A stretch of 64,000 nt of DNA, filler included, from Jimgerdemannia flammicorona (Eukaryota), in NCBI GenBank assembly GCA_003990765.1. It is 3 parts of 3 records of this genome, joined end to end, with 100 filler letters (N's around TTAATTAATTAA, not from the genome) between each part and the next. Parts side by side here need not be neighbours in the genome. Positions count along the whole stretch, not along the records: positions 43,034 to 64,000 come from RBNJ01001555.1; 2 more parts are not named here. The stretch is one strand, 5' to 3'. Position numbers and translations under genes: made by a program. Shown here one piece after another: positions 1,877 to 63,277 of the stretch. A model generated the notes under the pieces. The model ran no database searches. It was not told the origin of the DNA and saw only the letters and a program-made list of their open reading frames with translations. The first letter of the stretch is position 1. Every line of letters starts with the position of its first letter.

Positions 1877-4800
1877 ATGAATAACCCCCACAACAACTAC
1901 CCTGACTACAAGAGTCACCCCTGCAAGAATTCAAGATAAGATAGAAATGTGTCCCCTCACATTCTATGGATATACTACTGAAGAGTCAATCCTGACCTTC
2001 ATTGAAGACTTTGAACAATTCGCCGCCATATGAGCCCTTGATGTGGATGCTCAATTGGCCCTTCTACCAGTCAGCCTCAGAGGACCTGCCAGAGATAAGT
2101 TTAATGCAGCCACCATTGCTGGTGCTGATGCAGTCAAACTTACCAACATGAAGACCTTCCTCAGAACAACATATTATACCGAAGAGATCAAGCAAGCTCT
2201 CAAGGATCAACTCAATACTATCTGCCAGAGACTTAGTGAAGATCCCAACTCATTCTATACCTGAATCTGCCACCAGATTGTCTTGGCTGGCTATGATGAT
2301 GCCCTCAAGGAACAAATAGTAGATTCAACCTTCCTCAAAGGAGTTTACCCTGAAATTGCCTTAGCAATCTGGTCTACCCCAGCTGTACTGACCCTTAATC
2401 AGAAAGTGGTCTTTGTACAGAGATATTGGACTGCCAGACACCCTGCTGAACACTCAATGGAGAAAATAACTGGCATCAAGATGGAGCCATCAAAGCCAAC
2501 TAGTATCTTACCTGCTACAGTTGTAAACAGACAACCAACCCCACCTACCCCCAAGACAGCCAAAGCTGACCCAGTGGAAGAACTTGCCAAGCAGTTCACT
2601 GAGATGACTGCACACCTCAGTGATGTTGTTAAAGAAGTCTGAAGCACCAACAGGAGACCAGTGCAGAGATTTGCAGCTGCTACAGAAGAATGCAATATCA
2701 CATACTTCAGATGTAGAGAAGAAAGCCACTATGCAAAGAGTTGCATGACCGAAATGAGACACAAAGCCCAACCATGCAATGCTAGCAGAACCAGAGAACA
2801 AACCAATGCAGTAGTCATCGAGGAGATTGGTGACACTGATGATGAAGAATACTATGAGGAGCTCGAATTCTACCCTGCTACTGAAGGTACCAGAACCCAG
2901 TCCAAGCCCTATGATAAGAAGAGCAACAGCAAGCCAGTTGGAAGACCAAAGAAGACTCCAGCTGTCACTATTCAAAGCAAGACCCAATCTGAGGAGATTG
3001 ATCAAGACATGGAGTTAGACAAAGCTGCCTGCCAAATTATTGAAGTCACTACTCCAGTCTCAGGAGAAAGCAAGAGCAAGAAGGAACAGAAGTTGCACAA
3101 GACCAAGATCCATCAGTATGATATCTACAAGGACCTCAAGGAACAGAAGGTCAATGTCACTTTTGGGCAGCTAGCTGAAGTCCCTGCCTTTAGACAGCAG
3201 TTGAGAGTAGGACTTGCAACTACTACTAAGAATCAAGAGTACAAGATCATAGAAGCTCACAATGCACAAGAAGAATCTGAGAACTTAGGTGAAGAATCCA
3301 AAGACCAGCGCAAGACATCAGCCTATACCCCCTGTCAGATTGAAGACTGTATCTTTGATGCCATCATTGATACTGGTATTGGAGGATGCCTCATAAGTAA
3401 GAAGGCAATTGAACGCCTAGGTTGGGACATTGAAAAGTCCACCAGGATGGTCTATGTCACAGTAGACAGTGCACGAGCTACCCCCCTTGGCAAAATCTGA
3501 GAAGTCCCCATCAAGATAGGAGGAGCTACCATCCCAGTATATGTGATTGTTATAAGCGTCACCAACTATGACATCATCATTGGTAACCAATGGCTTCACA
3601 AGGCCAAGGCCATCATTGACCTCAATGCCCAGAAGATGCAGATTAACTACAGAGGAAGAAAGGTACGAGTTTCTATCAATGTCCACAAAGGAGTCCTGCC
3701 AGACATGGAGGAAGGAGATGAAGAAAACACAGAGGTCTTCATGCACTTGGTGAACAAGAACAAGAACAAGACACCCAAGCTCACAGATGAGCAGTGGTAT
3801 AACAAGATCATCGATGGGTATGCCCCTCAAGGAAGATGCCCCCATGGTACTAGAATGTACTGCTCTGAACACCTGAATGACTGCTGGTCCTGTATCAGTG
3901 AAGTCAGGAAAATCTGCCAACAGAAACATGAGCAAGAAGCTGCTGAAGCAAAAAGGAAAGCCGAAGAAGATGACCAGCCCCCAGAGCTTCAAGCTGACAG
4001 TGACAATGAGGAGGAACAAGACCAGACATCACCCTCAAGGTCAAGAAGTTTCACCCTGAAGCCAAGATCCCAGAATACAAGACTGAAGGAGCCATAGAAA
4101 TGGACCTTGCCAGCATCCAAGATGCTACTCTCGAACCACAGACCACCACCCTACTTGGCACTGGAATTGGAGTCAAGTTGCCAGAAAACCATACAGGAAT
4201 TATCAAGACCAGGAGCAGTCTGGCCAAAAGTGAAATCTCAGTTGAAGGAGGAGTAATTGACCCTGATTACACTGGCAAGATTTTTCTCATAGTCAGAAAT
4301 CACAACCACACCACCCCCTTCAAAGTCAAGAAGCATGACAGGATTGGCCAGATGCTGATCCACGAAATCAAGAAGCCCAAGATCATAGAAGCCATTGAAC
4401 TTATCAAGACCAAGAGAGGAGAACAAGGCTTTGGATCTACTGAAAGAGGAGTCTATGCCACCACCAAGATTACCAAACTTGAGCACAAGAAAGACAAGGA
4501 CCAGAACAAGCACACATATACCATTGGAGAAAACTTTCCTCTGGAGGAACAACTTCTCAAGATCCTGTACCAGAATGAAGGGGTACTTGCTACAGACTTT
4601 AGGGATATCCACAATCAAGAACCCAAGTACTACCATGAAGTTAACACTGGTGATACCAAGCCTATCTACCAGAAAGCCAGACCCATACCACCTGCCTACA
4701 GAGAATAGCTGTGAGCCAAACTCAAGGAAATGGAAGAAGCCAGAATCATCAAGCAAGCTATCAGCCCCTGGGCCTCACCCATTGTCCTAGCCCTGAAGAA

Positions 4801-15681: not shown

Positions 15682-15749
15682 CCATTCAGGTGACACAAGA
15701 CTTTGGCAACACTTTTCTCAACATTTTTTGGTGACAGACAACTATCAAC

Positions 15750-17650: not shown

Positions 17651-17694
17651 CATGGAATACTAGGATGGGACCTCAACTGCAATTATTTTTCAAT

Positions 17695-22880: not shown

Positions 22881-25800
22881 GCCAACCTGCTAAAATGATC
22901 TATGTCACAGCAGTTAGTATACAAGCTACTCCTCTAAGCAAGATTCAAGAAGTTTCCATCAAGATAGAAGGAGTTACCATCTCAGTAGATGTGATTATTA
23001 TAAGTACCACTAACTATGATATCCTTATTGGCAATCAATGGCTTCATAAGGCCAAGGCTATTATTAACCTCAATGCTTAGAAGATATAGATCAACTATAG
23101 AGGAAGAAAGGTATGAGTCTCTATCAATATCTACAAAGAAGTACTACCAGACATAGAGAAAGGAGATGAAGAAGACACAGAAGTCTTTATACACTCAGTA
23201 TACAAGAACAAGAGCAAGATACCTAAGCTCACAGATGAGCAGTGGTACAACAAGATCATTGATGGATATGCCCCTCAAGGAAGATGCCCCCATAGTACCA
23301 GAATATACTGCTCTGAAAACCTGAATGACTGCTGGTTCTGTATCAGTGAAGTCAGGAAAATCTGCAAACAAAAGTATGAGCAAGAAGCTGCTGAAGCAAA
23401 AAGAAAAGCTAAAAATGACCAGTCTCTAGAGCTTCAAGCTGATAGTGATGATGAGGAGGAATAAGAACCAGACATTACTCTCAAGGTCAAGAAGTTTCAC
23501 CCTGAAGTCAAGATCCCAGAATACAAGACTGAAGGAGTCATAGGAATGGAACTTGCTAGCATTCAAGATGCTATCCTCAAACCATAGACCACCACTTTAC
23601 TTGGCACTGGAATTGGAGTCAAGTTGCCAGAGAACTATATTAGAATTATCAAGACCAGGAGCAGTCTGGCCAAAAGTGAAATCTCAGTTAAAGGAGGAGT
23701 AATTGACTATGATTACACTAGTGAGATCTTTCTTATAATCAGGAATCATAACTCTACCACCCCATTCAAAGTCAAGAAACATAACAGAATTGGCCATACT
23801 GATCCATAAAGTCAAGAAGCCCAAGATCACCAAAGCCATTAGACTCATCAAGACTAAGAAAGAAGAACAAGGTTTTGGATCTACTGGAAGAGAAGCCTAT
23901 GCTGCTACTAAGATTACCAAACTTGAGCATAAGAAAGACAAGGATCAGAACAAGCACATATATATTATTGGAGAAAACATTTCTCTAGAAGAACAACTTC
24001 TCATAATTTTACATCAGAATGAAAAAGTACTTACCACAGACTTCAGGGACATTCATAATTAAGAACCCAAGTACTACTATGAAGTTGATATCAGTGATAC
24101 CAAGCCCATCTACCAGAAAGCCAAACCTATACCACCTGCCTAAGAGAATGGCTATAAGCAGGACTTAAGGAAATGGAAGAAGCTGGAATCATCAAGTAAG
24201 CTATCAGTCCCTGGGCTTCACTCATTGTCCTTACCTCAAAGAAAGGAAGCAAGCCTGGAGAGTTTGCCCCAAGACTCTACATTGATTACAGAAAGCTCAA
24301 TACAATCACCAAGAAGGATAGATAGCTCTTATCAAATATTCAAGAAATTCTTACTATCCTTGAAAGTGAAGCCAAATACTACACTATCTTGGATCTGTTC
24401 TTGGACTTTCATCAGATTGGTCTCACTCAAGATACTAGTGAGAAATCAGCCTTCATCACATCTGATGCCACCTATGTCTAACTGTGAATGCCATTTGGAA
24501 TATGCAATACCCTAGTAAATTTTTAGTGAATGATGAACAGAATCTTCAGCAATGAGATTAGAAAATAGCTCTTTATCTATGTTGATGATATAATCATCTT
24601 CAGCAATATTGTATAGAAACATGTCAACCATATATAGCTAGCTCTCAAGAAGCTCAAGGAGTATGGCCTCTACATTAAGCCCAAGAAGTACAAGTTTGTA
24701 GCTCAGGAAATCACCTACCTAGGACACCTCATCAACTGGAATTCATATAGACCCTATGAAGATTGAGAATGTTGCAGCCTACCCAAGATCCAGAACAACT
24801 ACAGAAGTTCATATCTCCCTTAGACTGGCCTCCTACTATAGAAGATTTATCAAAGGATACTCTAATATTAAAGCACCTATCTATGAGCTACTGAAGAAGG
24901 AGACTAATTTGAATAGACCAAAGAATATCAAGAAATCTTCAATGAACTCAAGACCAGATTGACTCAAGCACACATCCTTAGAGACCAGATTGGAACCTAG
25001 AGTTCATCTTACAGACAGATACAAGTACTATAGAACTTAGAGCAGTCCTAGCTCAGACAAAAGATAGATATAAATATATCATCTCCTATATAAGCTGAGA
25101 TACCTATAAAGCAGAACAGAACTATGAGTCATGTAAGCTTAAATGCTTAGCAGTAGTTTGGGCAGTAGACAAGTTCCACTACTATCTAGCTAGGAAATAC
25201 TTCACTATTCAAACAGATCATTCTACTCTTGCCTAGCTATTCCACACTCTGAACTCTAAAGAAATATATACCAGATATATCTATAGGCTATAAGAGTATA
25301 ACTATACTATCAAGCACTGCTCAGAAAGAACCAATGTCAATACTGATATACTCTCAAGAATACTCTAAAACACTCCCATCAAGACTATTCAATATAAATA
25401 AGGAGCTATACTATGGATTAATTAGCTATCTTGGGTAGCAGAAGATATCTAACTATCTTGAACTCTGGACTATCACTATCATCAACTAGACTTGGAAACA
25501 ATTTGAACTAGACAATACCACATTCAGAAAAGGAGAAAAGATTATAATATCTAAATACAAGAAGTATCAAGTAATGAAGGAAGTATACAAACAAGGATAC
25601 CTAGGAGGAATTAACATATATGACAAGGCAAGAAGAATCATATAGTGGCCCAAGATAGAAGAAAACCTGTACCAATTTGTCAAAGAGTGTAATAAGTGCT
25701 AAAAACACAAATAAGATCAGCAAGACCAGGTATCTAGGTCATTAAGAATTGAGCCTATCCCCTTCCACCACATCACAATAGATATCATTGAACCACTATC

Positions 25801-35700: not shown

Positions 35701-38023
35701 ATTCCAGCATGGTTCTCTGATAACTTGACTCCAATTCCAGTGCCAAGTAGGGTAGTGGTCTGTGGTTCAAGAGTAGCATCTTGAATGCTGGCAAGGTCCA
35801 TTCCTATGGCTCCTTCAGTCTTGTATTTTGGGATCTTAGCTTTAGGGTGAAACTTCTTGACCTTGAGAGTGATGTCTGATTCTTATTCCTCCTCATCATC
35901 ACTGTCAGCTTGAAGCTCTGGGGGCTGGTCATCTTCTTTGGCTTTCCTTTTTACTTTGGTGGCTTCTTGCTCATGTTTCTATTGGTGGATTTTCCTGACT
36001 TCACTGATACAGGACCAGTAGTCATTCAGGTGTTTGGCAGTACATTCTAGTGCTATGGGGGCATCTTCCTTGAGGGGCATAGCCATCAATGATCTTGTTG
36101 TTATACTGCTCATCTGTGAGCTTGGGTGTCTTGTTCTTGTTCTTGTTCACCAAGTGCATGAAGACCTCTGTGTCCTCTTCATCTCCTTCCTCCATGTCTG
36201 GTAGAACTCCTTTGTGGACATTAATAGAGACTCATACCTTTCTTCCTCTGTAGTTGATCTGCATCTTCTGGGCATTGAGGTCAATGATGGCCTTGGCCTT
36301 GTGAAGCCATTGGTTACCAATGAGAATGTCATTGTTGGTGGTGCTTGTAACAATCATATCTACTGGGATGGTAGCTCCTCCTATCTTAATGGGGACTTCT
36401 CGGATTTTGCCAAGGGGGGTAGCTCATGTACCATCTGCTATAACATAGATCATCTTGGTGAACTCTTCAATATTCTAACCTAGGTGGTCAATTGCCTTTT
36501 TGCTCATGAGGCATCCCCCAGCACCAGTATCAATGATGGCATCAAAGATACAATCTTCAATCTGACATGGAGTATAGGCTGATGTCTTGCACTGGTCTTC
36601 AGATTCTTCATCTGAGTTCTCAGATTCTTCCTGTACATTGTGAGCTTCTACAATCTTGTACTCTTGATTCTTAGCAGTAGTTGCAAGTCCTACTCTCAAC
36701 TGCTGTCTGAAGGCAGGGACTTCAGCTAGCTATCCAAAAGTGGCATTGATCTTCTGTTCTTTGAGGTCCTTGTAGATGTCATACTGGTGGATCTTGGTCT
36801 TGCACAGCTTCTGTTCCTTCTTGCTTTCACTTTCTCCTGAGACTGAAGTAGTGCCTTCAATAATTTGGTGAGCAACTTCATCTAATTCCATGTCTTGATC
36901 AATCTCCTTGGGTTGAGTCTTGCTTTGAATAGTGACAGCTGGGGTCTTCTTTGGTCTTCCAACTGGCTTGCTGTTGCTCTTCTTGTCATAGGGCTTGGAC
37001 TGGGTTCTGGTACCTTCAGTAGCAGAGTAGAATTCAAGCTCCTCATAGTATTCTTCATCATCAGTATCACTGATCTCCTCAATGACTACTGCATTGGTTT
37101 GTTCTCTAGTTCAGCTAGCATTACTTGGTTGGGCTTTGCATCTTATTTCAGTCATGCAACTCTTTGCATAGTGGCCTTCTTCTCCACATCTGAAGTATAT
37201 GATATTGTATTCTTCTGTAGCAGCTGCAAATCTCTGCACTGGTCTCCTGTTGGTACTTTGGACTTCTCTAACAATGTCACTAAGGTGTGCAGTCATCTCA
37301 GCAAACTGCTTGGCAAGTTCCTCCACTGGGTCAGCTTTGGCTGTCTTGGGGGTAGGTGGGATTGGTTGTCTGTTTACGACTGTGGCAGATAAGATACTAG
37401 TTGGCTTTGATGGCTCTATCTTGATGCCAGTTATTTTCTCCATTAAGTGTTCAGCAGGGTGTCTGGCAGTCCAATATCTCTGTACAAAGACCACTTTCTG
37501 ATCAAGAGTCAGTGTAGCTGGGGTAGACTGAATTGCTAGGGCAATTTCAGGGTAAACTTCTTTGAGGAAGATTGAATCTGCTATTTGTTCTTTGAGGTAG
37601 TCATTATAGCTGGCCAAGACAATCTGGTGGCAGATTTGAGTATAGAATGAGTTGGGATCTTCACTAAGTCCCTAGCAGATAGTATTGAGTTGATCCTTGA
37701 GAGCTTGCTTGATCTCTTCAGTATAATATGTTATTCTGAGGAAGACCTTTATATTGGCAAGTTTGGCTGCACCAGCATCAGCAATGGTAGCTGTATTGAA
37801 CTTGTCTCTGGCAGGTCCTCTAAGGCTGACTGGTAGAAGGACCAATTGTGCATCTACACCAAGGGCTTGTATGGTGGCGAATTGTTCAAAGTCTTCAATG
37901 AAGGTCAGAATTGACTCTTCAGTAGTATATCTATAGAATGTGGGGGGACACATTTCCATCTTGTCTTGAATTCTTGCAGGGGTGACTCTTGTAGTCAAGG
38001 TAGTTGTTGTGGGGGTTGTTCAT
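32760..38023 (-). pseudogene. A2 gag-PR-dUTPase-RT-RNaseH and separate-frame integrase
   Basis: IIDTGAG, dUTPase 35187-35801, YIDD in 34584-35171, RNaseH in 33980-34681, integrase from about 33954. Confidence 0.9.
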
Positions 38024-42682: not shown

Positions 42683-42933
42683 TTTGTTTGTGGTAAGTCT
42701 TTGAGCTATTTTGGGATTGGGGTTCTTGTTGGCTGCTACTACTGCAGTTCCTTGATCCTTCTTTTATATTCTTCAGGATGCTTGTGCTGTGGTCACAATG
42801 ACTCACAGTTGGTCATCGTTGCTCATCTCGCATGCCGTATGATCTTCTTGTACTCTGATCTGGTGGCTTGTAAAGAAAGGCTGTCTCTTGTGCTGATGTC
42901 ATCATTCTGGGGTCACCGTTACATCTTCCTCCT

Positions 42934-43033: not shown

Positions 43034-45340
43034 CCCCCACTACTCCCTCCTCCTATCCCTTCTTGATAAAAGACTACTTTGTCAACCACCATCGCTACCT
43101 GCCCACCACTCTGTTTACAGATCTCTTTCACCAGATGGTGACATTGCCCACCCTGGAGACTCCAACCAATCTACCACCCAGTCAGTAGATCTTCCACCAA
43201 AGTCTCCCACCTCAACAACTTCTCCTGTATCCCTATTTGTTGCCCTTCCTCAAAAACAAAGAGCTAATGCCCAGCCAAACCAACCCACACTGCTACAATC
43301 CACCCTACCATAAGCCACCCATTGCTGACACCTCCCACCAGTCTAGATCTCAAATCCTCCCAGCAACCTCTCTCACCATCTGGCCTCCTTCCTACACCCA
43401 GCTGGTCCTCTATAGCTATCCAAAAGTCTCCCAATATCTCACATTCTCCCAGCCAATGTTCTAGCATCTGCACAACTCCCCCAGCATGCCCTACATTATA
43501 ACACTCCTCACAATCCAGTCAGCTACCAACTACCAGATACTCTGTACAGAAATTCAACATAACATTTCTCTATAGCATTCACCACCAAACTATCCAGAAC
43601 TTGAGAGGAAGCCATCTCTGCATCTCAGCACTCCAGGACCAGATTCCTGCCCAGTCCCACTCCTCACCAATCCCCACTATCTGCCAGCTCTTCAGCCAAA
43701 GATCCTGGCCAAGTCCCTGCTGATACTCCACTCCATTGCCAATATCAAACTCAGCAAGCAGCATCCCCCCTAGAAGCAGTCAGTCCCATTGCCACATAGC
43801 AGGCTCCACACCACCTCTCCCTCATTGCCATACCAGCACAAGCCTATTTGGTGTGCTCCATTCACCACTCTCTATCAGAAGCCCTTATACCTCATCCAGC
43901 AGCTTCCATTCAGACTCACCAAAGAGAGCAAATCACCTGAGGACTCTTGAGGGGAGACTCTCATCTCCCACACCTTTTGCATCAGTAGTACCCAACCTCC
44001 TCCCTGCAGCTCCACTGTCCTTCTCAACCACCAGGCTTGCAGACAGTATAGCTGCTTAGGAAAATCTATCAGACCTAGGCCTCTCTTAATCCTCTGCTCC
44101 ACAAGGATATCCCAACTGATCTGGGACCTTCTTCTTGTCCAAATCCAATACCTAACCAGTTTCATCAGCCTCTTCACCACCCAGACTAAAAAGTCTAAGT
44201 GATACACCACATACCATAGCTTGGGGAACCAGTAAACATTCAAGATTGATACCCTCCCTATCAGAGAGATGTGACAACCTCCCTAACCTCTAAGAGCCTC
44301 CCCCCAAACAGCTACCCTTCTCTCCCACTATACCCATGGTAAGACTGACCTATATACAGAAAGAAAGATACCAAGATACTACACTATCTCTCCTGTGGGG
44401 ATAATTGTTCCAATGATATCTCCTCCCACTAGCCCATTTCCCAACACTATTGTCTCACACTTATACTAGTTGAGTTTTGCTCCAGAGTGCATCTCATACC
44501 ATTCCACTGTTTCCTTAAGTGCCTCCACATCCACCACTGATCCAAGTCCAACTACTATATCATCTGCAAAGGCCCCCACCTTCTTCTGGATCCTATCCAT
44601 CAAAGGTTCCAGTGAAAGTGCATAAAGAATAGGGGACAGCGGGTCTCCCTGGGGAACTTCTCTTCTTAAGGGAAATGCCAAACCTCTATAACTATTGCAC
44701 ATTAGTACTGCCCTACTGCTCTCCAACAACTTCAACATAGAAGCCCTAAACTGTTGTGGAACACCAATTCTATCCAGCACCTTGCCTAACCATACCTACT
44801 GAACATGGTCATAGGCCTTCTCCTGGTTCAGAAATATCAGTCTACCATCCAGTTTGCAAGCCTAGGCCCCTTCTATAATGCCATGCACCCAGGTAGTCCT
44901 ATCTCTGATAAGTCTTCCTCCTACAAAGCCCTGCTGTTCCTCACTCAGTACCTATTGAGCAACCTTCTGTAGCCTTGCAACAATCACCTTAGTCACTAAC
45001 TTCCTATTCATATCCAGAAGCATGATTGGCCTCCAGTTCTTCCAGTTCTCTTGTCCACTCTTGTCTTTATACAATAAGGCCACCAGCCCCAGGTCTTGCT
45101 TACCAACCCACTCGTCATTCAGAAGAACATAGTCACAGAGGGCAGCCATCTCTCCTAACACTTCAGGAACCTTTGTCATCTTCTTCCAGAAGTCCCAAGG
45201 TAATTCATCCTCCTCAGGTACCATCTCAATCTTAGTTGCTGCAAGGACCCCCTGGACCTCCTCCTCTTGGACTGGTAAGATCAGGTCACTCAGTCTCTCT
45301 ACCTATGGTGGCTCTCACTCTTCCAGAGCATCACTAATTG

Positions 45341-50400: not shown

Positions 50401-51924
50401 CCAGCACATCTCTTTTTTTTTTCTGATCCCTCATTACACTCCCATCAACAGTTACACCCCCAGCCACAGCCCCTCCTGCCCCTATGCTCCTATCTCCTCC
50501 CTGAGGGCCACTCCTCCTCCTGACACTAGCCTTGCTCTTCCCCTCAGCAGTGCCAGCCCTGATTCCAGCAGGCCATCTACCTGTCTTCACCTTATCAGCA
50601 AAGCTGGAGGGACCAGGCCTACCCCCAGATCCACCAGACACTGGTCCTTCTCTAGAGCCTTTGCCACCCTTTGACCCTCCAAAAGCCCCCATCTCCAATC
50701 CATACCCTCTCCCCACATGCTGCCAGCTAAAAGCCTCAGGTCCATCTGACCCAGCATACTCATCAGAACTCTTGCTCGATGACATATTTATAATACCTTT
50801 CCTCTGAGTTGTGTTGAAAAACTGTTGCTTGAGATTGGTGTAATGTGAATTGTACCAGAGAAAGGTGATAATATAGTTATCTCTGTATGGAGGTCTTGGT
50901 CATTAGATAAATCTAGTTTTGAGGATTTGAAGGAGATATATAGTATATTGATAAAGGTATTATATAATTGTGGATTGGGGAACAGTTCTGTGATGATGAA
51001 AGCTTATCTTAACTCTTTGGAAAATTCTTCAGAAAGATCCTTAAGTTCACTTACTATCTCTTCTTTAACAGCAATTAAATATTCTCTCAGTATTATTTGA
51101 TAAATAGATTCTGAGTAAGTCTGTTGTTCATTTATATCTAATAGCAGAATTCTAAGATAAGGGGACATATGCTGTAGAATTAGATAAAGGGGTAAAGGAG
51201 ATATACTCTACTTACTTTACTTTAATAGGGGTTGGAGTAACTTCTGGAAATGTATTAGACTGCTTAAGCAAAGCAATGGGCAAATATATATTTAATGCTA
51301 TCAGCATTTATTCAGTATCATTATTCTATCAAATAGTTGATATATAATATATTATATGTATATTCATCTATCTGATCTATGGTAATAAGTGAAAATATAG
51401 ACTGGCCAAAAGTTTATTAATATATTTATTCTTGTATCTGATCTATAGCTTGTTAATGTTATTCATACATCTGTTCCATGAGCCATAAGCAATGAAGCTG
51501 CAGCCAAAAGCTTATTTAATATATAGATATATATTTATATATATTATAGATTGGGCTTTAGTCAAGAGATAATACCAAAAGCTTAGTATATCTATATTAA
51601 TCAGTCTTGTTAATCAGTTTAAAAAAAAAAGATATATATTCATCATTTTTCTATTATTTTAAAAAGAAAGAAAGATATAATTTAATTTAATATATATTTG
51701 TGCAGCTCACCCTTGTGCTATAAGCAAAAATAAAATATAAAGGAGACTATGAATGTCTATGTTACTCTTCTATTTATCTGCTATAATCACTAAAAATTTG
51801 TATAAAGTGGCCAGACTATCAGTTGGATCTTTCAATAATGAATTTGATAGTAAAGAGTGTAAGAGCATCAGCAAGAAGGACAAGGATATCAGCAATGATA
51901 TGGTGGATTATACCAAAAAACTAG

Positions 51925-52235
51925 CAGTCCAATCCAGCAAGAGTGGCATTAGCTAACTCAGTAAGAGTAGTATCAGTTAATCTAGTAAGAGCAGTATTAG
52001 CTAACCTAGTAAGAGTAGTATTGATCAACTCAGTAAGAGCAGCATCAGCTAATCCAGCAAGAGCAACATTGGCCAACCCAGCAAGAGTGATATCAGTCAA
52101 CCCAACAAGAGTGGTATCAGTCAACCAGTCAGCCAACTCAGCAAAAGCAGCATCAGCAAACTCAGCAGAAGTGACATTGATGAACTCAGCAGGAGTGGCA
52201 TCAGTAAACCCAGCAGGAGTAGTATTGGTCAGATC
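51925..52235 (+). repeat. 24 bp tandem repeat (~12 units) in a decayed ORF
   Basis: GCATCAGCTAATCCAGCAAGAGCA-like unit; 8 aa periodicity in the ORF track. Confidence 0.8.
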
Positions 52236-52989
52236 AATCTAGTCAATAACAGTGACTATGAAACCCAACTGAATAAAAAAGAACAAACTCACATCGAAAT
52301 CAAGCTGAGTCAAAATGACCAGATCAGCCAATATGAAAGCAGAAAAAATGAACTTACAATATCTCACCAGACTAACTCTAGTTATTCTGACCAATTGAAC
52401 CAAACCACACAGAGAAAATGTGACCAAAATAACCAGACCAGCCAATATGAAAATAGGAAAAATAAACTTATGATATTCTACTGGACTGACTCTGGCTATT
52501 CCGGTCAATCAAACCAAACTATGTAAAGAAAATACAATTATATAACATTTAGTAAAGAAGATGATTATGATGAAAATTACATATCTAATGACAATTGGAG
52601 TGATTCTAAGAGTGCAGTCTTACTGGCTCTAAAAAACTATACAGATCTCCTATGAGAATCAATCACTTCTTATATCAGTTATACTGAAGATACCTGTAAG
52701 AAGTACTGGGTGGCAATGGCTGCAGATCAAAAAGAAAAAAGAAGGATAATTGATTCTCAACTTGGAATTAAGTAGACCAGAGTACAGGATGATGTTTTGA
52801 AGATACTAGTTGAAAAGAGTACTAGTTAGGTATAAATTGCTATAATAATTCCAGATTGGGATCTGAAACAGTATGAAAAAAAATAGAGAGAGATCAACCA
52901 TGGGCACCATTAGAATAGTATTGATCAATGAGCTCTACTAGCCACTATAGTATGTATTTTTTTTTTTTTTTTGAAATAAAAAACACTTA

Positions 52990-53180: not shown

Positions 53181-54931
53181 TTTTCAAAAATAAATATGAT
53201 GGCTGAGTGATTATATGGACAAATTGGGCTTGATTCCTAACCTGAACTCTAACTCTCTTCTTATTTGCTACTACTGCTGCTACTAATTAATATAAGATGT
53301 TCTCAAAGTAAAGGAGCTTTACTTTAAAGATATATTTGAAGATATAATATTTGCAGATATGGGGTTAGCTCTAAGATAGATATTGAAGATAATATAAAAA
53401 GTATATATATTTAATATACTATAACTACTTATAATAATTTTACTATTATATTTTAGTCTTAGTACTTTTTTACATCTTCTTTTTTATCATTTTTTGAATA
53501 TTCTACTATATTCTGGTACTTTCTGAATACTTAGAAATTATCTCTTAGTACTAAGATATTATTAAAATATTCTTATCTTCTCTTGATACTAAGTATTTTA
53601 TCTTAGTTAGTTATAAACCCTTTTAGAATATTGTAGAATTCTATTAGTTATCTTTGCTGAGAACCTATTTCTTAGCTTTTCTCTTCTTTTTTAGATCCTT
53701 CTTTCAGATCCTATATAAATATTCTTATTTTTTATTTAAATAAAACTCAGAATATTTTCTCTCAGAAATCCTTTCAGAATACTTAAACCTATAAGTATCT
53801 CTTTGAACTACTTTAGACTCACTAAAACTTTCAGTCTTAGCTACTTCCTCTTAAAGAAACTAAAACTATTATACTTAATAAAGTAGTATCATTATACTTT
53901 ACCTTATTAAGAAATCTTATATAAATTTAGAAACTAGTTACAACTAGTTATATAAGTTCAAAATGAGCTATATATAATTAGTCTACCAGCCAGACCTCTC
54001 TGCTACAGAAGAAGTAGAAAATACTGAACCATAAGTTAGCTTAGAAGATATAGTTACCACTATGGCTCACTAGCTCTGATAACTTTAAGTACAATTAGAA
54101 TATTAGAAAATGTAATAGCTCTTGGTTCTATCCCTCTCTTATCCTTTGGATAATTAGGGAAGTGGACTATTACTTAGGGACTTAGTACACAATGTGTACC
54201 AAGAAGCCTTTAGTTTGAGGAAGTACTCACTTAAAGTAGTTGTAGCGGCAGTGCCTTATCTTTCAAAGGTCTTTCTCTGATTTGCCTTCTGTTTCAAAGG
54301 TCTTTCTCTTGTGCCCTATTTTGAGGGTCTTGTTCTTTGCTGTGCACAGACTGAATTCACCTTGGAATTCAGGTTCAATGGATTTACTTAAGTCTTTGGA
54401 GATTTATATACCGGTCTCAGTTCTGGTAGAAGTTAGCTAGGCTTCTGGAGTTTAGTCAGAAATACTAGAGTCACTTAGATGTCATTACTAAGACTCAGGG
54501 GAATGTGTGTGTGTGGGGGGGACTGGATTCTTGTATCAAGGACTGAACTAAAACTGCTTTATTTCAGATAGAAAACTGGGGGGTATTTATACAAGTTGGT
54601 CCACGATTTCTGACTAAGTATGAGTGACTAATTTGGTAACTATAATGAGGTTTGTGATCGCGACCTTTGTCAGGTAGTTTTTGGTAAAAACAACTTTGTG
54701 ATCAGGACCTCAATTACTAGGCAATGATCAGCTGCTATGGCAACTGTTGCTGCGGCACCGATTGTTGGGGATAAGCTGGATATCATTTTCCACGTCATTT
54801 TGCATCATTCATTCGTCACTTGCTATTCATATGTTGTGCTTGATTGTATGATGATGTCATCACCGGGTCACGTGATCACTTGTCGTTCGTCGCATCCCAT
54901 CTGTTTGTCATTCTATTACATCCTTCCCCCC

Positions 54932-55741
54932 TCAGAAATCAACGTCCTTGTTGATTGAGAAATTGAGAACCAGGGGAGAGAAAGGTGGGGAATCTTCCTC
55001 AGGGGCAGGGGGGGTGGTTGTTGCTGATGGTTCACTGTCCAGAATAGAGAAGTCAATGAGGTCTGCAAATGGTTCTTGCATTGGAATAGGTGCTGGTGTA
55101 GGGGTTCTCCATCTGATGCAGTTGGGGCCATCCAAGTAGGGCTCTTGATCTTCATGCCTGGGAATATCCATTCGGATAGGTGGTCCTTTAAAGAGGTCAG
55201 AGAGACCTTGGAGCCATTGGTCAGAGTTGTCATTCAGGAGAGGGCTCCAGTAGGGTTCATAGTCAGTAGACTTGAGGGCAATCCAGGAGTTGGCTTCTTG
55301 GGCAACCTTGACTTCTAGGGCATCGACCTCAGGGAAAGAGAGGTTCTGGAAGTCCTTCAGTTGTATGTAGTTGAGGTTGGGGATTGCAAAGGGTGCATGG
55401 TACATGATTTGATGGATCTTCTTGACAAGTCTTTGCTTGTGCCTGTCTAGGTGAGTCCAGTCAGAGACTTGGTCTGTGGGCAGGTCCTTTGCCCATTGGA
55501 GGAGTTGATGGCCAATCTCATATTCATATCAGATTTCTAGGTGGCTGGTAGCAAGGTAGGCTCTTTCAATGACTTCATGGCGGTTGAGGACATAGTGTCC
55601 TAGGTTCTGGCTGGAGAGGTTAAGGGCCTCTGAGCAGCAGTTCCTTCCTTGGATGGCAACCTGGATGTGTCCAAAGAGGCGGTCAACCTGGCTTGGGAGG
55701 GGCTGGCTGCAGCAGGCAGTTTGGTGGTGGGTGGCAGGCAT
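54932..55741 (-). pseudogene. Accessory ORF of C (homolog of the family A LTR ORF), one internal stop
   Basis: MPATHH...KKIHQIMYHAPFAIPNL...FADLIDFS...PLVLNF; the stop abuts the PPT. Confidence 0.85.
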
Positions 55742-56383
55742 TCTTGTCTTGTCTTTTCTTTGTGAGGAAAGGGAGATGAGAGTTGCAGGGTATTCTTGCC
55801 TTGGGTATTTATACTTATTTGCCCATCTGATGTAACCTTCCTTTGGTCACACTTTCTGGCAAAATGCATGACCTGTGCTATAAGTGGAGCATATGCTGGT
55901 CACATGAGGAAATCCTGATTTCAAAGATCTCGTCACCTGTCTGTGGTTACACAGGGTTAACAGGTCTTGGTCCACTTTTTTTTTTGTCTGGTTGGCGCAT
56001 TTGCGAGGACTGGCCATCCTTGTCTAGGGCGAGGGCTCTCATTGTCATGGCTGGGGGTTCGAACCTCTCAGAAATAGACTTTCTTATAATCTGAGGCAAT
56101 TCTTAGTAACAATATCTATCACGTGGATGGACTTAGACTGGTTTTGACATTGTCAGCTTTTCTAAGTTTCACATGAAGCGTCTGTCATCATCCAGCAGAG
56201 ATGATACAGATGGCGTGAAATGGAGTTGTTCAAATGCATTTTGCTGTACTGTACTAGATTGTTCTTTTGCTTGGGTATCTTCTTGTTGGTTATCCATAGT
56301 GTTCCTTTTTTCACAATGTTCGGTATTATATGTTTCCAGATAAAAATATGTGGTATCCTTCTGTTCACTGTGTGCTCCTATAC

Positions 56384-59300
56384 TTAGAGCTGTAGTTCCT
56401 TCCTTTGCTGGGGGGTGAGTGTTTCCATATAGTCCTGGAGGGCTTCGCATGCATTCTTCAGGGCTTCTTCTTTTTCCCAGGTGGTATCATAGGTGGGGTA
56501 ACCCTTCCACTTGATCAGGAAAAAGTGCTTGACTGTTTTGGGATATTTGCAGACCTTGTGGTCAAGTACTTCCTCAATTTCGAATTCCTCATGATCATTG
56601 ATCCTAATTGGGAATAGTGGTGGAACTATACACTCAGAGAATGGGTTCTCGTGGTAGTCCACCAATTGGCTGATATGGAATACTGGGTATACTCAGATAT
56701 TGTGGGGAAGTTGTAACTTGTAGTTGACTTCACTGATTTTTTCCACGATCTTGTATGGTCCAATTCTTTTAGCACGGAGTTTCTTGGCTGGTTGTTGTGC
56801 CAGAGTGTCTGGGTGGAGGTGGTCTGTTCTAAGCATGACCTTGTCACCAATATTGTAGGAGGCTTCTCTTCATTTCAAATTCGTGTACTTGGTCTGGTAG
56901 TCTTGTGCTTCTATGAGAGCATCTCTTATCATTCGCATAAGGTCAGAAATGGTCTCGGCCAGATCTTGGGCTACTGGGACTGCTGATTTCGCGGTAGTAC
57001 TTGGGGTCCTTGGGTGTTGACCATGGTTCAGGAAGAATGGAGTCTTCTTTGTGGAGGTTTGCTGACTGTTGTTGTAGGCAAACTCAGCATGGGCCAGGTA
57101 CTTGTCCCAATAATTTTGCTTGTAACAGCAGAAGATGCTAAGCATCTGTTTGAGAGTCCTGTTTGTTTGCTCAGTTTGACCATCAGTCTGAGGGTGGTAG
57201 GTAGTAGAGAACTTCAGCTTGGTTCCATAGAGAGAGAAAAATGCCTTCCAGAAGTTGCTTGTGAACTTGGCATCTCGGTCAGATATAATGGTGCTAGGCA
57301 TGCCATGTAGCCTGAATACTTGATTGAGAAAGATCTCGGCAATCTCTGGTGCTGTAGCAGTGGTCTTGGTGGGTGCAAAATGGGCTTGTTTACTTAGGCG
57401 GTCCATGAATACCACAATGGCATCCCATCCTGCCTTGGTCTTGGGGAGTTGGACAATGAAGTCCATCACAATCTGGTCCCAATTGTAACTCGGGATAGGC
57501 AAGGATTGCAGGAGTTCTGCTGGTAGCTTGTTACCACTTTTGAACCTTTGGCACATCTCGCATGAGGCCACAAAGTCTTTGATATCCCTGGTCATCTTTG
57601 GCCAGTAGAACTCTTTTGAGAGGAGGTTGTAGGTCTTTTCAAAACCAAAGTGTCCTGCTGCAGGAGTATCATGGAGTTCCTGCATGATTTTGAGTCGCAG
57701 AGTATCATTGTTGGGTACAACCACTCTGTCATGGTCCCTGTAGATAAGTCCATTACAGTAGGTGAATCTCTTGGCCATTTGCCTCATGGGTTCTGGAATC
57801 TCGGCCTCTGGGTCTTGGCAGAACTGAAGGAAATTCATCAGTGGGCTGTCTTGCTAGTAGCCATCTTTGATCATTTGGGTAAGGTCTCCAATTACTTCGA
57901 CCATGAAGACAAGTTCATCTTCCATGTACCTAGAGAAACCATCAGCCACACAGTTGGTTTTGCCTGGGATATACTTGATTTCCATATCAAAGTTAGCAAT
58001 GATTTCCATCCAGCGGGCTTGTCTGTGGGTCAGCATGGGCTGTGTGTGAATATACTGTAGTGTATGGTGATCAGTGTAGGCCACAAATGGCTGTCCTAGG
58101 AGGAAATGGTGCCATTCCTGGAGTGCAGTGACAATAGCCAGAAGTTCCTTCTCATGGGTGGTATACCGGGTCTCAGCTGGCTTGAGCTTCTGTGAAAGGT
58201 AGGCCACTGGGTGGTCTTCTTGGCTGAGCACTGCTCTAATAGCAATGTCAGAGGCATCTATTGTCAGAGTGAATGGTCTGGTAGGATCAGGTGCAATTAG
58301 CACTGGGGCCTCAGTAAGGAGTCTCTTGAGATGGTCCATAGTCAGGGTACATTTGGGGGTCTATTCAGCTTTGATGTTCACTTCTTTATGGGCCAGGCTG
58401 GTCAATGGGGCTGCAATAGCAGAGTATCCTTGGATAAACCTTTGGTAATAACTGGCGATACCCAGGAAGTACTGGAGTAGCTTGAGGGTAGTAGAGATAG
58501 GGATATCCTTAAGAGCTGATACCTTTCGGGGGTCCACATTGATACCTTCAGCAGAGATGATGTGTCCTAAGTACTCAATCTGGTCTTGGTAGAACTTGCA
58601 TTTGCTCATCTTGGTATAGAGCTGGTGTTCTTGCAGGAGGGTCAGTACTTGTCTAAGGTGGGTGTAGTGTAGCTCTACTGTCTTGCTGTAGATTAGTATA
58701 TCATCAATATACACAAGGACACAGATGTTGAGAAGTAGTCCAAAGATATCATTCATCAGATACTGGAATGTTGCTGGTGCATTGGTCAATCCAAAAGGCA
58801 TGACTCAGAACTGGTAGTGTCCAAACCATGTTCGGAAAGCTGTCTTCTCAATGTCCTTCTCATCAATGAGAATCTGGTGGTAGCCATTTCACAAATCCAG
58901 TAGAGAAAAGGTCTTGGCCTTGAAGATTTGGTGTAACAACTCATCAATCCTGGGCAAGGCATACTGGTTCTTGATAGTGATCTTGTTGAGGACTCTATAG
59001 TCAATACACATTTGCAGAGAGCCATCCTTCTTCTTGACAAATAGAATGGGGGCTCCAAATGGAGAGTGGCTGGGTTCAATATATCCCTGGGCCAGTAGTT
59101 TGGTCAATTCATCCTTGAGGGTCTTGAGCTCAGGTTGAGCCAGTTGATAGATACTCTTGTATAGGGGTTTAGATCCTGGAATAAGATCAATTCCATGTTG
59201 GATTTGGCGCTTGGGTGGAAGTTCTTGAGGATCTTGGAATACATCTTGGAATTCTTCAAACAGTTCTTGAGCTTCTGTTGGAATTGGGCTGCTTGTAGCA

Positions 59301-60190
59301 TCAGTGACTTCTTGTACTGTACAGATGAAGTAGGTGTTTCCCTTTTTTCAAGAGAGTCTCTTCATTTGAATGGCAGAGATGATTTTGATTCCTTGGTAGT
59401 TGGTATCTTCCTGGGGTATCAGGGTGATCTTTCTGCCTTCGTGGGTCAGATTGACCTCGTTGGTTCTCCAGTTGATGTCTGGGTTATGTTGGGTCAATCA
59501 GGCTTTTCCTAAGATAATGTCTTGTCTTGGGAGGTCTACAATGCTGAAGTCCAACTTCTCTTGATATTTGCCAATTTTGAGCAAGAGGTCTTCACAGATC
59601 TTGGTCAATGGTGCAGTCCTTCCATCACCAAAGGTAACACTTCTTTTCTCAGTAGTTGGTCTGCTTTGGGCTCCAATCCTCTTGGCGGTCTTGGTGCTGA
59701 TGTAGTTTCCAGTAGCACTACTATCAAGCAAGACATTGACATTCTGTCTGTGGACTTGGCCTGTGAACTTGATGCAACTATCCTCCTTCTTGATGGTATT
59801 GAGCTCTTCCTCCTCATTGTTGTCCCAATTGCTGTCAGTCTCCTCGAAGTCAGTCTCTTCCCATCCTTCACAAGGAGGGTTGTCTTGTTTGAGTTCCTTA
59901 GTCTGTTGAGCTTGGTGCTTCTCAGATTGAATTTTGAAAAATTTGGAGAGGCATGCATGGCATTCATCAATATGTTCCATGCAGTACATTCGAATGGAAT
60001 GAGAGCATCATCCACATGGTGCATAACCATCTGCAATTCTCTTGTACCAGTTTTCATCATCTTCCTTCATGGTAGTGACCTTTTGACTAGGAGATTTGTT
60101 GGTAGATCCAAACTCTTTCTTGCCACGATCTGTCTGGGAGAGTTCAGAGACTTCTTCAATGGTGAGATCTTGACAGATTTCTTCAATGAT
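56384..60190 (-). pseudogene. C pol: protease, RT, RNaseH, integrase, chromodomain
   Basis: [36 protein letters not shown]...CEMC, YHPQTDGQTE, FEIEEVLDH...FLIKWKGYPTYDTTWE. Confidence 0.93.
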
Positions 60191-60510
60191 TACTTAGGCA
60201 ATTCTTTGGCCTGTTTTGACTTCAAATGATGTGTCTCCAAAATTTCGCAAAATGACACGGATTTCACCAGTAAATCCTTGGTCAACCACTCCTCCTCCTA
60301 GCCCAATGTTGAACTCTTTGGCTAGACTACTTCGCTCAGCAAGGTGGATGTATATACCTCTGGGGGCTTGCATTGCAATTCCTATTTGCACTGTAGCATT
60401 GGTACTTGGTGGGATGGTGAGGTCTTGGCTGCTGTAGAGGTCATATCTAGCATCAGTTGGGTGGGCCTTAGTGGGGATGGTAGCCTTGCACCATATCTTC
60501 TGTACTTTGA
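60100..60510 (-). pseudogene. dut: dUTPase domain between gag and protease (family C)
   Basis: DARYDL, ERSSLA, GGVVDQGFTGEI, GQRIA, RGKKEFGST. Confidence 0.9.
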
Positions 60511-62366
60511 TGATATTCTCAGAGTTCTTCTTTCCTGGACCTTCTCCAATAACAGTAATGTTCTGGTTACTGGGTTCACCTGATCTGTTTCTCTTCTCAG
60601 GGCATTTGACTGAGATGTATCCTACCTTCTTGTAGATAAAGCACAATCCTTTTTCATGGAGCTGCTTCTTCTCATCCTCAGTGAGAGATCTGGGTCCTCT
60701 GGGGTTTCGCTGGTTCCTTTGATCATATCTTTGATCATATCTTTGGTCATTCCTTTGATCATTTCTCCTGGCAGGATTTCTCCTGTCTTGGGTATCTTTC
60801 TTGTGTTCTTGATTTCGTGGAGCTTGTGCAGCAAGGATTTTGTGGGCTCTTCTTTGTACTTGGGCAAAGCACCATAAGTAGTGGGGACATCCTTGGGGAA
60901 GACCTTGTTCCTTGATCTTCTGGGTGAGCCAGTCTGGTAGGGCTGCAAAGAGATGATTGGCTCTAGTACCATTGATGGCCAAATTGTTTTCCTGATAGGT
61001 AAGTCCAACAGTTTTGAGATAGGCATCCATTCTGGTAACAAAGGTCTCTAGATCCTCTTCACCATTCTTGTGGAACTTCATCTGGGACAGTTTGTTCCAA
61101 GTTTCTTGTATGTAGGCCACATTTCGGAATTTGGTCAGTAGCAAGGCCTTGAGTCCAAGGCCTGCTTCATGGTCATCCCAACCTGGTCTATTGTTTGCCA
61201 AGTACTTGTCCATTGATTTGAGGGCAGGCTTTCCAGGTTACTGGGTGTTGTTCTAAGGTTTGCCAGAATTCGGCTGCTGTTCTAGTGAAGAATGTGGCTA
61301 CTGTTTCTACTTGTGCTGCTGATGTGGCAAACAGCTGTTGAAGGGTGCTGTTCTGGTTGTTGGTGAGCATTCCTATAGGTACTCGGTTGTCATTCCATTG
61401 GTTTGCTCAGTAGCCTATGTCAACTTCATTGATGAAGTTTTCAATATCACTGTTTTTTCCACTGAATGTTGGGATTCGCAAAGTCTTGGTTGGTTTGTTC
61501 TGTTCAGCAATCTGTCCTACTATCCCTGCTAGTGCTGCTAGCTGGGTGGTCAGTGCTGCAATATTGATATCTACCATTGTGTTGACTATTGGTGGTGGGC
61601 CTGTTGGGGTAGATTCTCCTAAAGATTGTTGTGCTTGGTGGGGTTGTGGTGCTGTATGACTTGGGGTTACTTGGTTCTCAGATATTAAGTCAAAGAGTCC
61701 TGTGAGAGAGGATAAACCAAATCTCTGTATAGGTGGCTGGGTTGGTTCTGGGGTCTGATCTTCTTGACCTATGGTTCCTTGGTAAATTCCTAGGCCTGCT
61801 ATTCCTCGTTGGCTATTATCAGACTGGTGACCTGTAGATTCTTCATCTGACTCCCTTCCCTGATGAGATAGTGCATCCTCATACTGACTAGGTCCTTCAA
61901 AGAGGATATCAGTCTCTGGCTGGGTTGATGGGCCTGCTCCTTGTTCAGCAGTAGGGGATGGATGGCCTGCTTGCTCGTTCTCATATCTAGTTATGGCAGA
62001 GGTGTAGTATACAACTAGCCTGCAGTAGAGGGAGGTCTTGGTTGGTATATGATGATATCTGTCAGAGGCAATCCACTTGGCAGCTGCTTCTCTTGCAGCA
62101 GAGGGTGTAATATAATCTAAAAAATCCTGGGTGGCTGCAGCAGTAGATTCTGAGGTCCTAGTGATTCCAATGTGTTCTTGGAGGAGTTCGTAGAACCTAC
62201 AGTGGCTAACAATATTCCTAAGTCCTGGGTGGTATGTCCTAAAGGCCTGGTATAGATCCTTGTAAGCCTGGTCAATTACAAGTTGGTGAGTCCTTGGGTC
62301 TGTAGTTTCCTGGTACCACCTGGTCCTAATGGCAAGGGCTTCTCTGGCTCTGGTTTGAGGATCCAC
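60511..62366 (-). pseudogene. C gag with a long N-terminal extension
   Basis: IPTFSG..IENFI capsid start, RNDQ/RYDQ repeats, GLCFI.K.VG.ISVKC knuckle. Confidence 0.8.
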
Positions 62367-62452
62367 AGTTATTTCTGGGGGTTACTCCTGTCCAAGGTTG
62401 GTCTTGTTCCAACTTCAGGAGTGTGTTCTTTGATGCCTTCTTGGCTGGTAAT

Positions 62453-62464
62453 CTGCTGCTACCA
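62453..62464 (-). other. PBS of C, initiator tRNA-Met-like
   Basis: TGGTAGCAGCAG 3 nt after the 5' LTR; TGGTAGC is the usual tRNAiMet-complementary start. Confidence 0.65.
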
Positions 62465-63277
62465 AGTTGTAATAGCTCTCAGTTCTATCCCTCTCTTATC
62501 CTTTGGATAATTAGGGAAGTGGACTATTACTTAGGGACTTAGTACACAATGTATACCAAGAAGCCTTCAGTTTGAGGAAGCGCTCACTTAAAGTAGTTGT
62601 AGCGGCAGTGCCTTATCTTTCAAAGGTCTTTCTCTGGTTTGCCTTCTGTTTCAAAGGTCTTTCTCTTGTGCCCTATTTCGAGGGTCTTGTTCTTTGCTGT
62701 GTACAGACTGAATTCACCTTGGAATTCAGGTTCAATGGGTTTACTTAAGTCTTTGGGGATTTATATACCGGTCTCAGTTCTGACAGAAGTTAGCTAGGCT
62801 TCTGGAGTTTAGTCAGAAATATTAGAGTCACTTAGATGTCATTACTAAGACTCAGGGGAATGTATGTGTGTGGGGGGGACTGGATTCTTATATCAAGGAC
62901 TGAACTAAAACTGCTTTATTTCGGATGGAAAACTGAGGGGTATTTATACAAGTTGGTCTGTGATTTCTGACTAAGTATGAGTGACTAATTTGGTAACTAT
63001 AATGAGGTTTGTAATTGTGATCTTTGTCAGGTGGTTTTTGGTAAAAACAACTTTGTGATCAGGACCTCAATTACTAGGCAATGATCAGCTGCTGTAGCAA
63101 CTGTTGCTGTGGTGCTGATTGTTGGGGATAAGCTGGATATCGTTTTCCACATCATTTCGCATTGTTCGTTCGTCACTCGCTATTCATATGTCATGCTCAA
63201 TCATATGATGACGTCATCACCGGGTCACATGATCGCTCATCATTCGTCGTGTCCCATCTGTTCGTCGTTCTATTACA

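What the first reader, a model, noticed from the sequence alone, without database searches (positions are those of the whole stretch)
59951..60049. Unrecognised Cys/His domain beside dUTPase in both families, in mirror-image order
Seen: C WYKRIADGYAPCG*CSHSIRMYCMEHIDECHAC vs A (3795-3893) WYNKIIDGYAPQGRCPHGTRMYCSEHLNDCWSC, 19/33 identical, pattern C-x-H-x5-C-x2-H-x3-C-x2-C. The order is PR-[domain]-dUTPase-RT in A but dUTPase-[domain]-PR-RT in C. It is neither the gag CCHC knuckle nor the integrase HHCC. Inference: a small metal-binding module exchanged between lineages along with dUTPase.
Basis: partly seen in the sequence, partly recalled or inferred. Interest (0 to 1): 0.72.

Follow-up and report, generated by a model that had tools for sequence, protein, structure and literature searches.

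The report
Unnamed zinc module in fungal retrotransposons
Decayed jumping genes of a fungus carry a small unnamed domain, probably zinc-binding, between their protease and their dUTP-destroying enzyme; it seems to have moved between distant lineages on its own and is a real but modest addition to the known parts of such elements.

Summary
In detail: 59951-60049 (-) and 3795-3893 (+) share 19 of 33 residues, and the order is mirrored. The stretch is the core of a sharply bounded module of about 55 residues in the pol of fungal Ty3/Gypsy elements. It occurs in three families of this genome (A, C, D) and in 18 database proteins. It has no Pfam, PDB or fold match. Only four of the six Cys/His are conserved (C-x-H-x12-C-x2-C), which fits one zinc site; AlphaFold gives helix-knuckle-helix at pLDDT 88.

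Exchange between lineages is likely: C is a chromovirus and A is not (RT 37-40% identical), yet their domains are closer (58-61%) than those of chromoviruses C and D (48%). 'Along with dUTPase' is not supported: the order is reversed, the shared block stops short of the enzyme, the dUTPases are equidistant (39-40%), and family E has a dUTPase without the domain.

Best guess at function (about 40%): a zinc-stabilised adaptor that stays on the dUTPase and holds it in the particle. The scan noted this module four times before, on other pieces of this genome.

The parts
59951..60049 (-). Core of the unnamed module in element C: helix 1, G-Y-x-P-x-G loop, C-x-H-x12-C-x2-C; interrupted by a stop at 60008-60010
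59900..60070 (-). Full extent of the module including the C-terminal helix (about 55 residues)
   Evidence: identity above background only from about -10 to +45 codons; model
60095..60511 (-). dUTPase (PF00692), upstream of the module in C; one stop inside
60602..60643 (-). Decayed gag CCHC knuckle of element C, separate from the module
   Evidence: zf-CCHC hit below cut-off in relative P0004
59414..59770 (-). Aspartyl protease, downstream of the module in C
57989..59205 (-). Reverse transcriptase and RNase H of C, with several stops
56873..57850 (-). Integrase of C (H2C2 finger and rve core)
56423..56584 (-). Chromodomain (PF00385, E 3e-12): C is a chromovirus
54935..55843 (-). Accessory ORF 3' of pol, homologous to the ORF in the LTR of family A (37% over 214 columns, E 2e-40); no significant Pfam hit
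54111..54920 (-). 3' LTR of element C (810 bp, 93% identical to the 5' LTR); 5-bp target duplication outside both LTRs
62468..63277 (-). 5' LTR of element C
3795..3893 (+). The module in element A (copy 1), between protease and dUTPase
3324..3677 (+). Protease of A, upstream of the module; one stop inside
4022..4441 (+). dUTPase of A, downstream of the module; out of frame in this copy, in frame in most other copies shown
23243..23341 (+). The module in a second, more decayed A copy
35955..36135 (-). The module in a third A copy, frameshifted inside the motif

Best explanation
The stretch is a small folded domain of about 55 residues (helix, short knuckle, helix) held together by one zinc ion bound by C-x-H...C-x2-C. 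It is translated as part of the Gag-Pol polyprotein. The element's protease most likely cuts it away from the protease but leaves it on the dUTPase: at the C-terminus in chromoviruses, at the N-terminus in family A. There it would act as an adaptor that keeps the trimeric dUTPase inside the particle core, near reverse transcription, so that dUTP is removed where cDNA is made. It passed between a C-like chromovirus lineage and the non-chromovirus A lineage as a cassette of its own, probably by template switching between co-packaged RNAs. SHOWN: conservation, bounds, architecture, mismatch with RT and IN, absence from family E. INFERRED: zinc binding (about 80%), exchange between lineages (about 70%), processing and adaptor role (about 40%).
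For: Four potential ligands are conserved in 14-16 of 16 database proteins, with an aromatic core (W/F-Y, G-Y-x-P, M-Y). A versus C identity by codon position is 22/26/15 of 33, the pattern of selection on the protein. The AlphaFold model has pLDDT 88.5, and four of five models score 85 or more. A dUTPase is adjacent in 13 of 18 database proteins with the domain; 4 of the rest are short fragments. In the 11 dUTPase-first proteins the linker to the dUTPase is short (12-33 residues) and mostly hydrophilic. Hydrophobic stretches that look like retropepsin sites (recalled preference, untested) lie between domain and protease in C, D and A, and behind the dUTPase in A. Domain identity is A-C 58-61% against C-D 48%, while RT is 37-40% against 56-60% and IN 30% against 61%. 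A and C also share an accessory ORF that the D and E stretches examined lack. Precedent for a zinc module kept on a retroelement dUTPase: betaretroviral NC-dUTPase (PMC4531489, section 9) and the extra knuckle after dUTPase in rotifer Juno elements (PMC5408684, passages).
Against: No experiment shows zinc binding, processing or a partner. Family E is abundant with a dUTPase and no module, so the enzyme does not need it. P0007 carries the domain with 50 and 45 flanking residues that show neither dUTPase nor protease. Family C has a hydrophobic, site-like stretch between dUTPase and domain as well. A 43-residue model from a shallower alignment was poor (pLDDT 60). In the 43-column domain tree no branch is starred; C's domain joins the A-type ones at 87/84 only. 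Homologues were first found with an A query, which may inflate A's similarity to all of them. Within-family pN/pS does not single the domain out: 0.19 in A, like its linkers, and 0.92 in C.
Confidence: 0.42

Rival explanations
1. Protease-linked module: a folded spacer or pro-domain that times protease activation or helps it dimerise. It would work like the transframe region or spacer beside other retroelement proteases (recalled analogy).
For: It borders the protease in both orders; 5 database proteins show PR downstream and 3 show PR upstream.
Against: It is 42-69 residues from the protease catalytic motif but only 12-33 from the dUTPase end. Family E has a related protease (38% to C's) and no module. 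No element with module and protease but demonstrably without a dUTPase was seen.
Confidence: 0.2
2. Nucleic-acid tether: a second nucleocapsid-like finger that anchors the dUTPase to RNA or cDNA, as NC does in betaretroviruses.
For: Conserved exposed-looking aromatics and a zinc site. In C and D the dUTPase directly follows the gag knuckle, as in betaretroviruses.
Against: Net charge of the 43-residue core is between -3 and +3 in all 15 proteins counted. This control is weak: the gag knuckle regions scored only +4 and +1, and a third comparison failed. CCHC spacing is not met.
Confidence: 0.15
3. Independent accessory function: a released mini-protein that acts on the host, for example against silencing. 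It sits in the PR/dUTPase junction only because that junction tolerates insertions.
For: It moved as a sharply bounded cassette. P0007 holds it in another context. A and C share a second accessory ORF.
Against: 13 of 18 database proteins keep it next to a dUTPase in spite of rearrangement. No copy in a host gene was seen, though genome searches score only the best 120-150 candidates.
Confidence: 0.15
4. One reading: domain and dUTPase moved together as one block and were then rearranged.
For: One origin of the seven domain-linked dUTPases is not rejected (AU p = 0.34). The two always lie side by side in A, C and D.
Against: The order is reversed. The dUTPases are equidistant. In the best tree the nearest neighbour of the A-type dUTPases is a long-branch protein without the domain (89/80, unstarred).
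Confidence: 0.2
5. Functionless linker or chance likeness.
For: All copies in the window are broken; pN/pS is 0.92 across C copies.
Against: 0 of 100,000 shuffles reach 19/33. The module is conserved over about 11 lineages whose linkers cannot be aligned.
Confidence: 0.03

Closest known systems
dUTPase-bearing fungal Ty3/Gypsy elements PosPlaTy3-3, -4, -5 (Postia placenta), and those of Phanerochaete and Tuber (PMC2864245, passages)
   Same: Fungal Gypsy pol with a dUTPase in varying positions: N-terminal to Pol as in C, or between PR and RT as in A. The paper states that these were acquired independently.
   Different: The passages read name only CCHC and HHCC fingers. No module beside the dUTPase is mentioned. 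Their sequences were not fetched, and the supplements (.doc) were not read.
Juno LTR retrotransposons of bdelloid rotifers (PMC5408684, passages)
   Same: dUTPase between PR and RT with an extra zinc-binding unit next to it; accessory ORFs shared between distant retroelements, explained by template switching.
   Different: Described as a Zn knuckle following the dUTPase. Here the spacing is C-x-H-x12-C-x2-C with flanking helices, on either side of the enzyme. Sequences were not compared.
Betaretroviral NC-dUTPase fusion, MMTV and MPMV (PMC4531489, section 9)
   Same: A zinc-binding module stays fused to a trimeric retroelement dUTPase and is proposed to attach it where RT works.
   Different: There the module is the basic gag NC with CCHC knuckles. 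Here it is a separate, roughly neutral domain of another spacing, present in addition to the gag knuckle.
Treble-clef zinc fingers (recalled; e.g. ribosomal S14 type)
   Same: Two ligands on a knuckle turn and two at the start of a helix, as the model's secondary structure suggests.
   Different: No fold match; only chance-level Pfam hints (DUF4379, E 0.29, 1 of 10 members); an extra N-terminal helix.

Membership tests
Ty3/Gypsy LTR retrotransposon (element C) | Two LTRs with TG...CA ends and a target-site duplication | tested here: met
   54111-54920 and 62468-63277, 93% identical, 5-bp duplication
Ty3/Gypsy LTR retrotransposon (element C) | pol order PR-RT-RH-IN | tested here: met
Chromovirus branch (element C) | Chromodomain at the integrase C-terminus | tested here: met
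   PF00385 46.7 bits, cut-off 25.1; homologous stretches in D and E
Chromovirus branch (element A) | Chromodomain at the integrase C-terminus | tested here: not met
   A profile from the C, D and E chromodomains finds nothing in 3 of 3 A copies (best E 0.9); no Pfam hit on the IN tail. The clade of A was not placed against reference RTs.
gag CCHC zinc knuckle (PF00098) | C-x2-C-x4-H-x4-C (spacing recalled) | tested here: not met
   Spacing differs; no PF00098 hit on 10 of 10 domain sequences; a separate gag knuckle exists
Integrase HHCC finger (PF17921) | H...H...C-x2-C at the IN N-terminus | tested here: not met
   The IN finger is elsewhere; no hit on the module
RING fingers | Eight ligands for two zinc ions (recalled) | tested here: not met
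   Four conserved ligands; RING hits in single members only, E 0.012 and 0.058
CCCH (tristetraprolin) finger | C-x8-C-x5-C-x3-H (recalled) | tested here: not met
   Only PDB sequence hit is 1m9o at E 1.3, over part of the motif
Treble-clef zinc finger | Knuckle plus helix-start ligands around one zinc | tested here: inconclusive
Zinc-binding domain (any) | Binds zinc | not testable with these tools
   Inferred from four conserved Cys/His
Betaretroviral NC-dUTPase type | Basic nucleic-acid-binding module fused to the dUTPase | tested here: inconclusive
   Net charge about zero, but the knuckle control was weak; binding not testable
Described GyDB, REXdb or Repbase domains | Profile match | not testable with these tools
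   These libraries are not held
Juno extra Zn knuckle | Sequence homology | not tested
   Only the paper's passage was read

The most novel reading that the evidence does not exclude
The module is a new type of zinc adaptor that retroelements trade independently of the enzyme it serves. It would have been grafted onto separately acquired dUTPases, at either end, to load them into the reverse-transcription core: a portable packaging tag that evolved in fungal Ty3/Gypsy elements in parallel with the betaretroviral NC-dUTPase fusion.
Probability: 0.2. Interest if true: 0.62.

Novelty: new variant of a known kind. Interest (0 to 1): 0.35.

Why it matters
It adds an unnamed domain to the parts list of Ty3/Gypsy pol and gives a clean example of a roughly 55-codon cassette crossing between chromovirus and non-chromovirus lineages in one host lineage. 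Why retrotransposons keep a dUTPase, and how the enzyme is held near reverse transcription, is open. One genome holds dUTPase families with the module (A, C, D) and without it (E), which makes a comparative test possible. The range seen is narrow (about 11 lineages) and no function is shown, so the weight is modest.

Tried and rejected
Library searches without a useful match:
- Pfam: no hit above cut-off.
- NCBIfam: one hit at E 0.13.
- PHROGs: phrog_29887, unknown function, E 0.0011, in 2 of 10 members. tblastn of annotated phages gave only E >= 3, so it was set aside as a weak lead.
- PDB by sequence: E 1.3 only.
- Foldseek against PDB and BFVD: 0 hits at E <= 0.001. VIA-align best Z 4.0, rmsd 3.6, 46 aligned, helical look-alikes. 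This absence does not show a new fold.
- ESM Atlas: best 0.81 to unnamed clusters; nothing usable for P0007.
- Viral and metagenome contigs: 0 of 28 and 0 of 63 pattern matches confirmed.

Rows dropped: 4 of the 14 phmmer hits (P0006, P0011, P0012, P0015) are repeat proteins without the motif. Near-duplicate outgroups P0026, P0028 and P0031, the partial dUTPases and the two window copies were left out of the tree.

Uninformative tests:
- The trimmed 43-residue model had pLDDT 60, so it was not searched.
- Complex prediction of dUTPase trimer plus module plus zinc: no verdict (score 0.01, alignments not used).
- Within-family pN/pS: linkers score like domains.
- RNA runs: no RNA holder listed.
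- Searches of the own genome with P0007 and P0014 showed no further family. The 20 loci checked were all family C; the 12 loci were judged from contig overlap, not inspected one by one.

Five paper searches listed no description of the module; listings only, except the papers named.

Full report
SETTING. The window joins pieces of several contigs with runs of N. The genome G000 has 231 Mb and several full-length matches to the chitin synthase family PF03142, up to 814 bits; I infer a fungus. The finding lies inside a complete but decayed LTR element, C, at 54111-63277 on the minus strand. Its 810-bp LTRs are 93% identical, end in TG...CA and are flanked by a 5-bp duplication. Three decayed copies of a second family, A, are also in the window.

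OBSERVATION. The two stretches share 19 of 33 residues without gaps; 0 of 100,000 shuffles reach that. C reads gag knuckle - dUTPase - module - protease - RT - RNase H - integrase - chromodomain. A reads gag - protease - module - dUTPase - RT - integrase, without a chromodomain. The window's C copy has a stop inside the module; the same stop occurs in 12 of 29 readable loci, so it is a mutational hot spot of decay.

COPIES IN THE GENOME. Searches with the A and C modules each filled the 150 scored places, from 4,894 and 2,844 candidates (these are not copy numbers). To avoid choosing copies by the module itself, I took 30 loci per family by their dUTPase. All 30 A loci and 23 of 30 C loci carry the module. 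The 7 misses have the dUTPase within about 150 bases of a contig end on the side where the module would lie (places). Each Cys/His position is kept in 27-30 of 30 A copies and 18-21 of 21 fully read C copies. These families are young, so this says little about selection; pN/pS did not separate domains from linkers. A search with a distant relative found a third family, D, in 30 of 30 loci: dUTPase - module - protease, lacking the middle Cys and middle His. A dUTPase search found a fourth family, E, in which the dUTPase runs straight into the protease. Of the 30 loci, 27 were printed: 25 were E, 1 was D and 1 looked like a cellular dUTPase; only the D locus had a module hit. Two E elements fetched with both LTRs hold no module between them (L133, L134).

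RELATIVES ELSEWHERE. phmmer over 1.84 billion representatives gave 14 hits, of which 10 carry the motif. Two profile searches added 8 more. Of these 18 proteins, 11 have the dUTPase upstream, 2 downstream, 4 are short fragments and one (P0007) shows neither enzyme in 50 and 45 flanking residues. Four (P0004, P0017, P0021, P0036) are close to families C, A, D and A. By my grouping of the identity table the set makes about 11 lineages. All come from metagenome or run assemblies with no organism named. Over 16 of them (P0036 and P0037 not included), the conserved residues are the first Cys (16), the His two places on (14), and the last two Cys (14, 15). The middle Cys (8) and His (6) vary. Also kept are W/F-Y in the first helix, G-Y-x-P-x-G, and M-Y. 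The pattern is therefore C-x-H-x12-C-x2-C: four ligands, one site.

STRUCTURE AND LIBRARIES. AlphaFold2 on a 10-sequence alignment gave a 62-residue model at pLDDT 88.5: helix 8-16, two short strands around the C-P-H turn, helix 34-39 and helix 41-61, which begins at the C-x2-C pair. That layout recalls a treble-clef finger (from memory), but I could not measure the site. A trimmed model from a shallower alignment failed (pLDDT 60). Pfam, NCBIfam, PHROGs, PDB sequences, Foldseek, VIA-align and the ESM Atlas gave no clear match. GyDB and Repbase are not held.

HISTORY. C, D and E are chromoviruses and close in backbone: RT 54-60%, IN core 51-61%. A is distant: RT 37-40%, IN 28-33%, protease 22-25%. 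The module runs the other way: A-C 58-61%, A-D 55%, C-D 48%. On 33 residues these differences are only a few positions. Still, the module is at least as close between A and C as between two chromoviruses, while RT and IN are far apart. In the module tree C joins the A-type sequences at 87/84, unstarred. The shared block is sharp: 13-22 of 30 bases match from about -10 to +40 codons, 7-11 of 30 outside. A and C also share an accessory ORF (37%, E 2e-40), which was not found in the six D and E stretches fetched. I read this as exchange between an A-like and a C-like lineage. The direction is untested, although most lineages seen are of the dUTPase-first type. The dUTPases give no sign of having travelled along: A-C 40%, A-D 40%, C-D 39%, A-E 37%. 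Their tree of 20 rows is mostly unresolved and needs four changes of the label 'has module', but one clade is not rejected (p = 0.34). A single block transfer would also keep the order, which is reversed.

MECHANISM. Shown: a conserved, bounded, probably folded module, in frame in pol, between protease and dUTPase in both orders, and dispensable for a dUTPase-bearing family. Inferred: it binds one zinc. Inferred more weakly: it stays on the dUTPase. The linker from the dUTPase is 12-33 residues, against 42-69 to the protease motif. Hydrophobic stretches like retropepsin sites (recalled preference) fall between module and protease in C, D and A. Against this, C has one such stretch between dUTPase and module too. 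The betaretroviral NC-dUTPase fusion is proposed to hold the enzyme where RT works (PMC4531489, section 9 read). The module here is neutral in charge, so a protein-binding adaptor seems likelier than a nucleic-acid tether, though the charge control was weak. I put this at about 40%. Rivals are a protease pro-domain (20%), a nucleic-acid tether (15%) and an independent accessory protein (15%).

LITERATURE SEEN. PMC2864245 (passages): fungal Gypsy dUTPases in three positions, acquired independently, role unclear. PMC5408684 (passages): an extra Zn knuckle after the dUTPase in Juno, and ORF sharing by template switching. PMC4531489 (one passage and section 9). PMC12789967 (passages): dUTPase positions in retroviruses. 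bioRxiv 10.1101/2023.09.13.557621 (one passage): dUTPase domains enriched with TE domains in Entomophthora. Five searches listed no description of this module. Subscription papers and the unread supplements of PMC2864245 could bear on that.

EARLIER SCAN NOTES. Four earlier reports on other pieces of this genome describe the same module. I saw them after reaching this reading and after finding the two papers they name. They are repeats, not independent support.

VERDICT. Real, unnamed in the libraries held, probably a one-zinc domain, probably exchanged between distant Ty3/Gypsy lineages as its own cassette. It is a new variant of a known kind: an extra zinc module beside a retroelement dUTPase. 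Interest 0.35.

Noticed in passing
window 54935-55843 (-); 423-1313 and 7653-8591 (+); 31352-32260, 38561-39442, 41861-42760 (-): An accessory ORF of about 300 codons with no significant Pfam hit is shared by families A and C (37%, E 2e-40). In A it lies inside the long LTR (about 1.6 kb), in C just before the 3' LTR. It was not seen in the D and E stretches fetched.
   Followed up: partly
L104-L132 (except L123), L133, L134, L137: Family E: a chromovirus with gag knuckle - dUTPase - protease and no module, LTRs about 400 bp, 93-94% identical.
   Followed up: partly
window about 60876-60890 (-); L072; P0018: The gag of families C, D and P0018 has a conserved C-x-H-x2-W-C stretch upstream of the CCHC knuckle.
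   Followed up: no
P0007 (157 aa): Carries the module with no dUTPase or protease beside it, and a second Cys-rich stretch near its end; a possible stand-alone use.
   Followed up: partly
L103:1501-1923 (-): A cellular-type dUTPase, the best PF00692 hit in the genome, with substitutions in conserved motifs; may be a decayed copy of the host gene.
   Followed up: partly
window 4022-4441 (+); P0009, P0034: The first motif of A-type dUTPases has Met where most have Tyr, as does P0034; the tree does not join them.
   Followed up: partly
window 15735-21000 (+), 28000-29000 (-), 43700-45300 (-), 47900-50900 (-): Decayed ORFs that look by eye like non-LTR (endonuclease plus RT) retroelements, with strong G-skew; not scanned.
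   Followed up: no
window 51921-52242: A stretch of short imperfect repeats open in frames on both strands.
   Followed up: no
window 3786-3950 (+): Weak PHROG match (phrog_29887, unknown function, E 0.0011) to the module in 2 of 10 members; no support from phage tblastn.
   Followed up: partly
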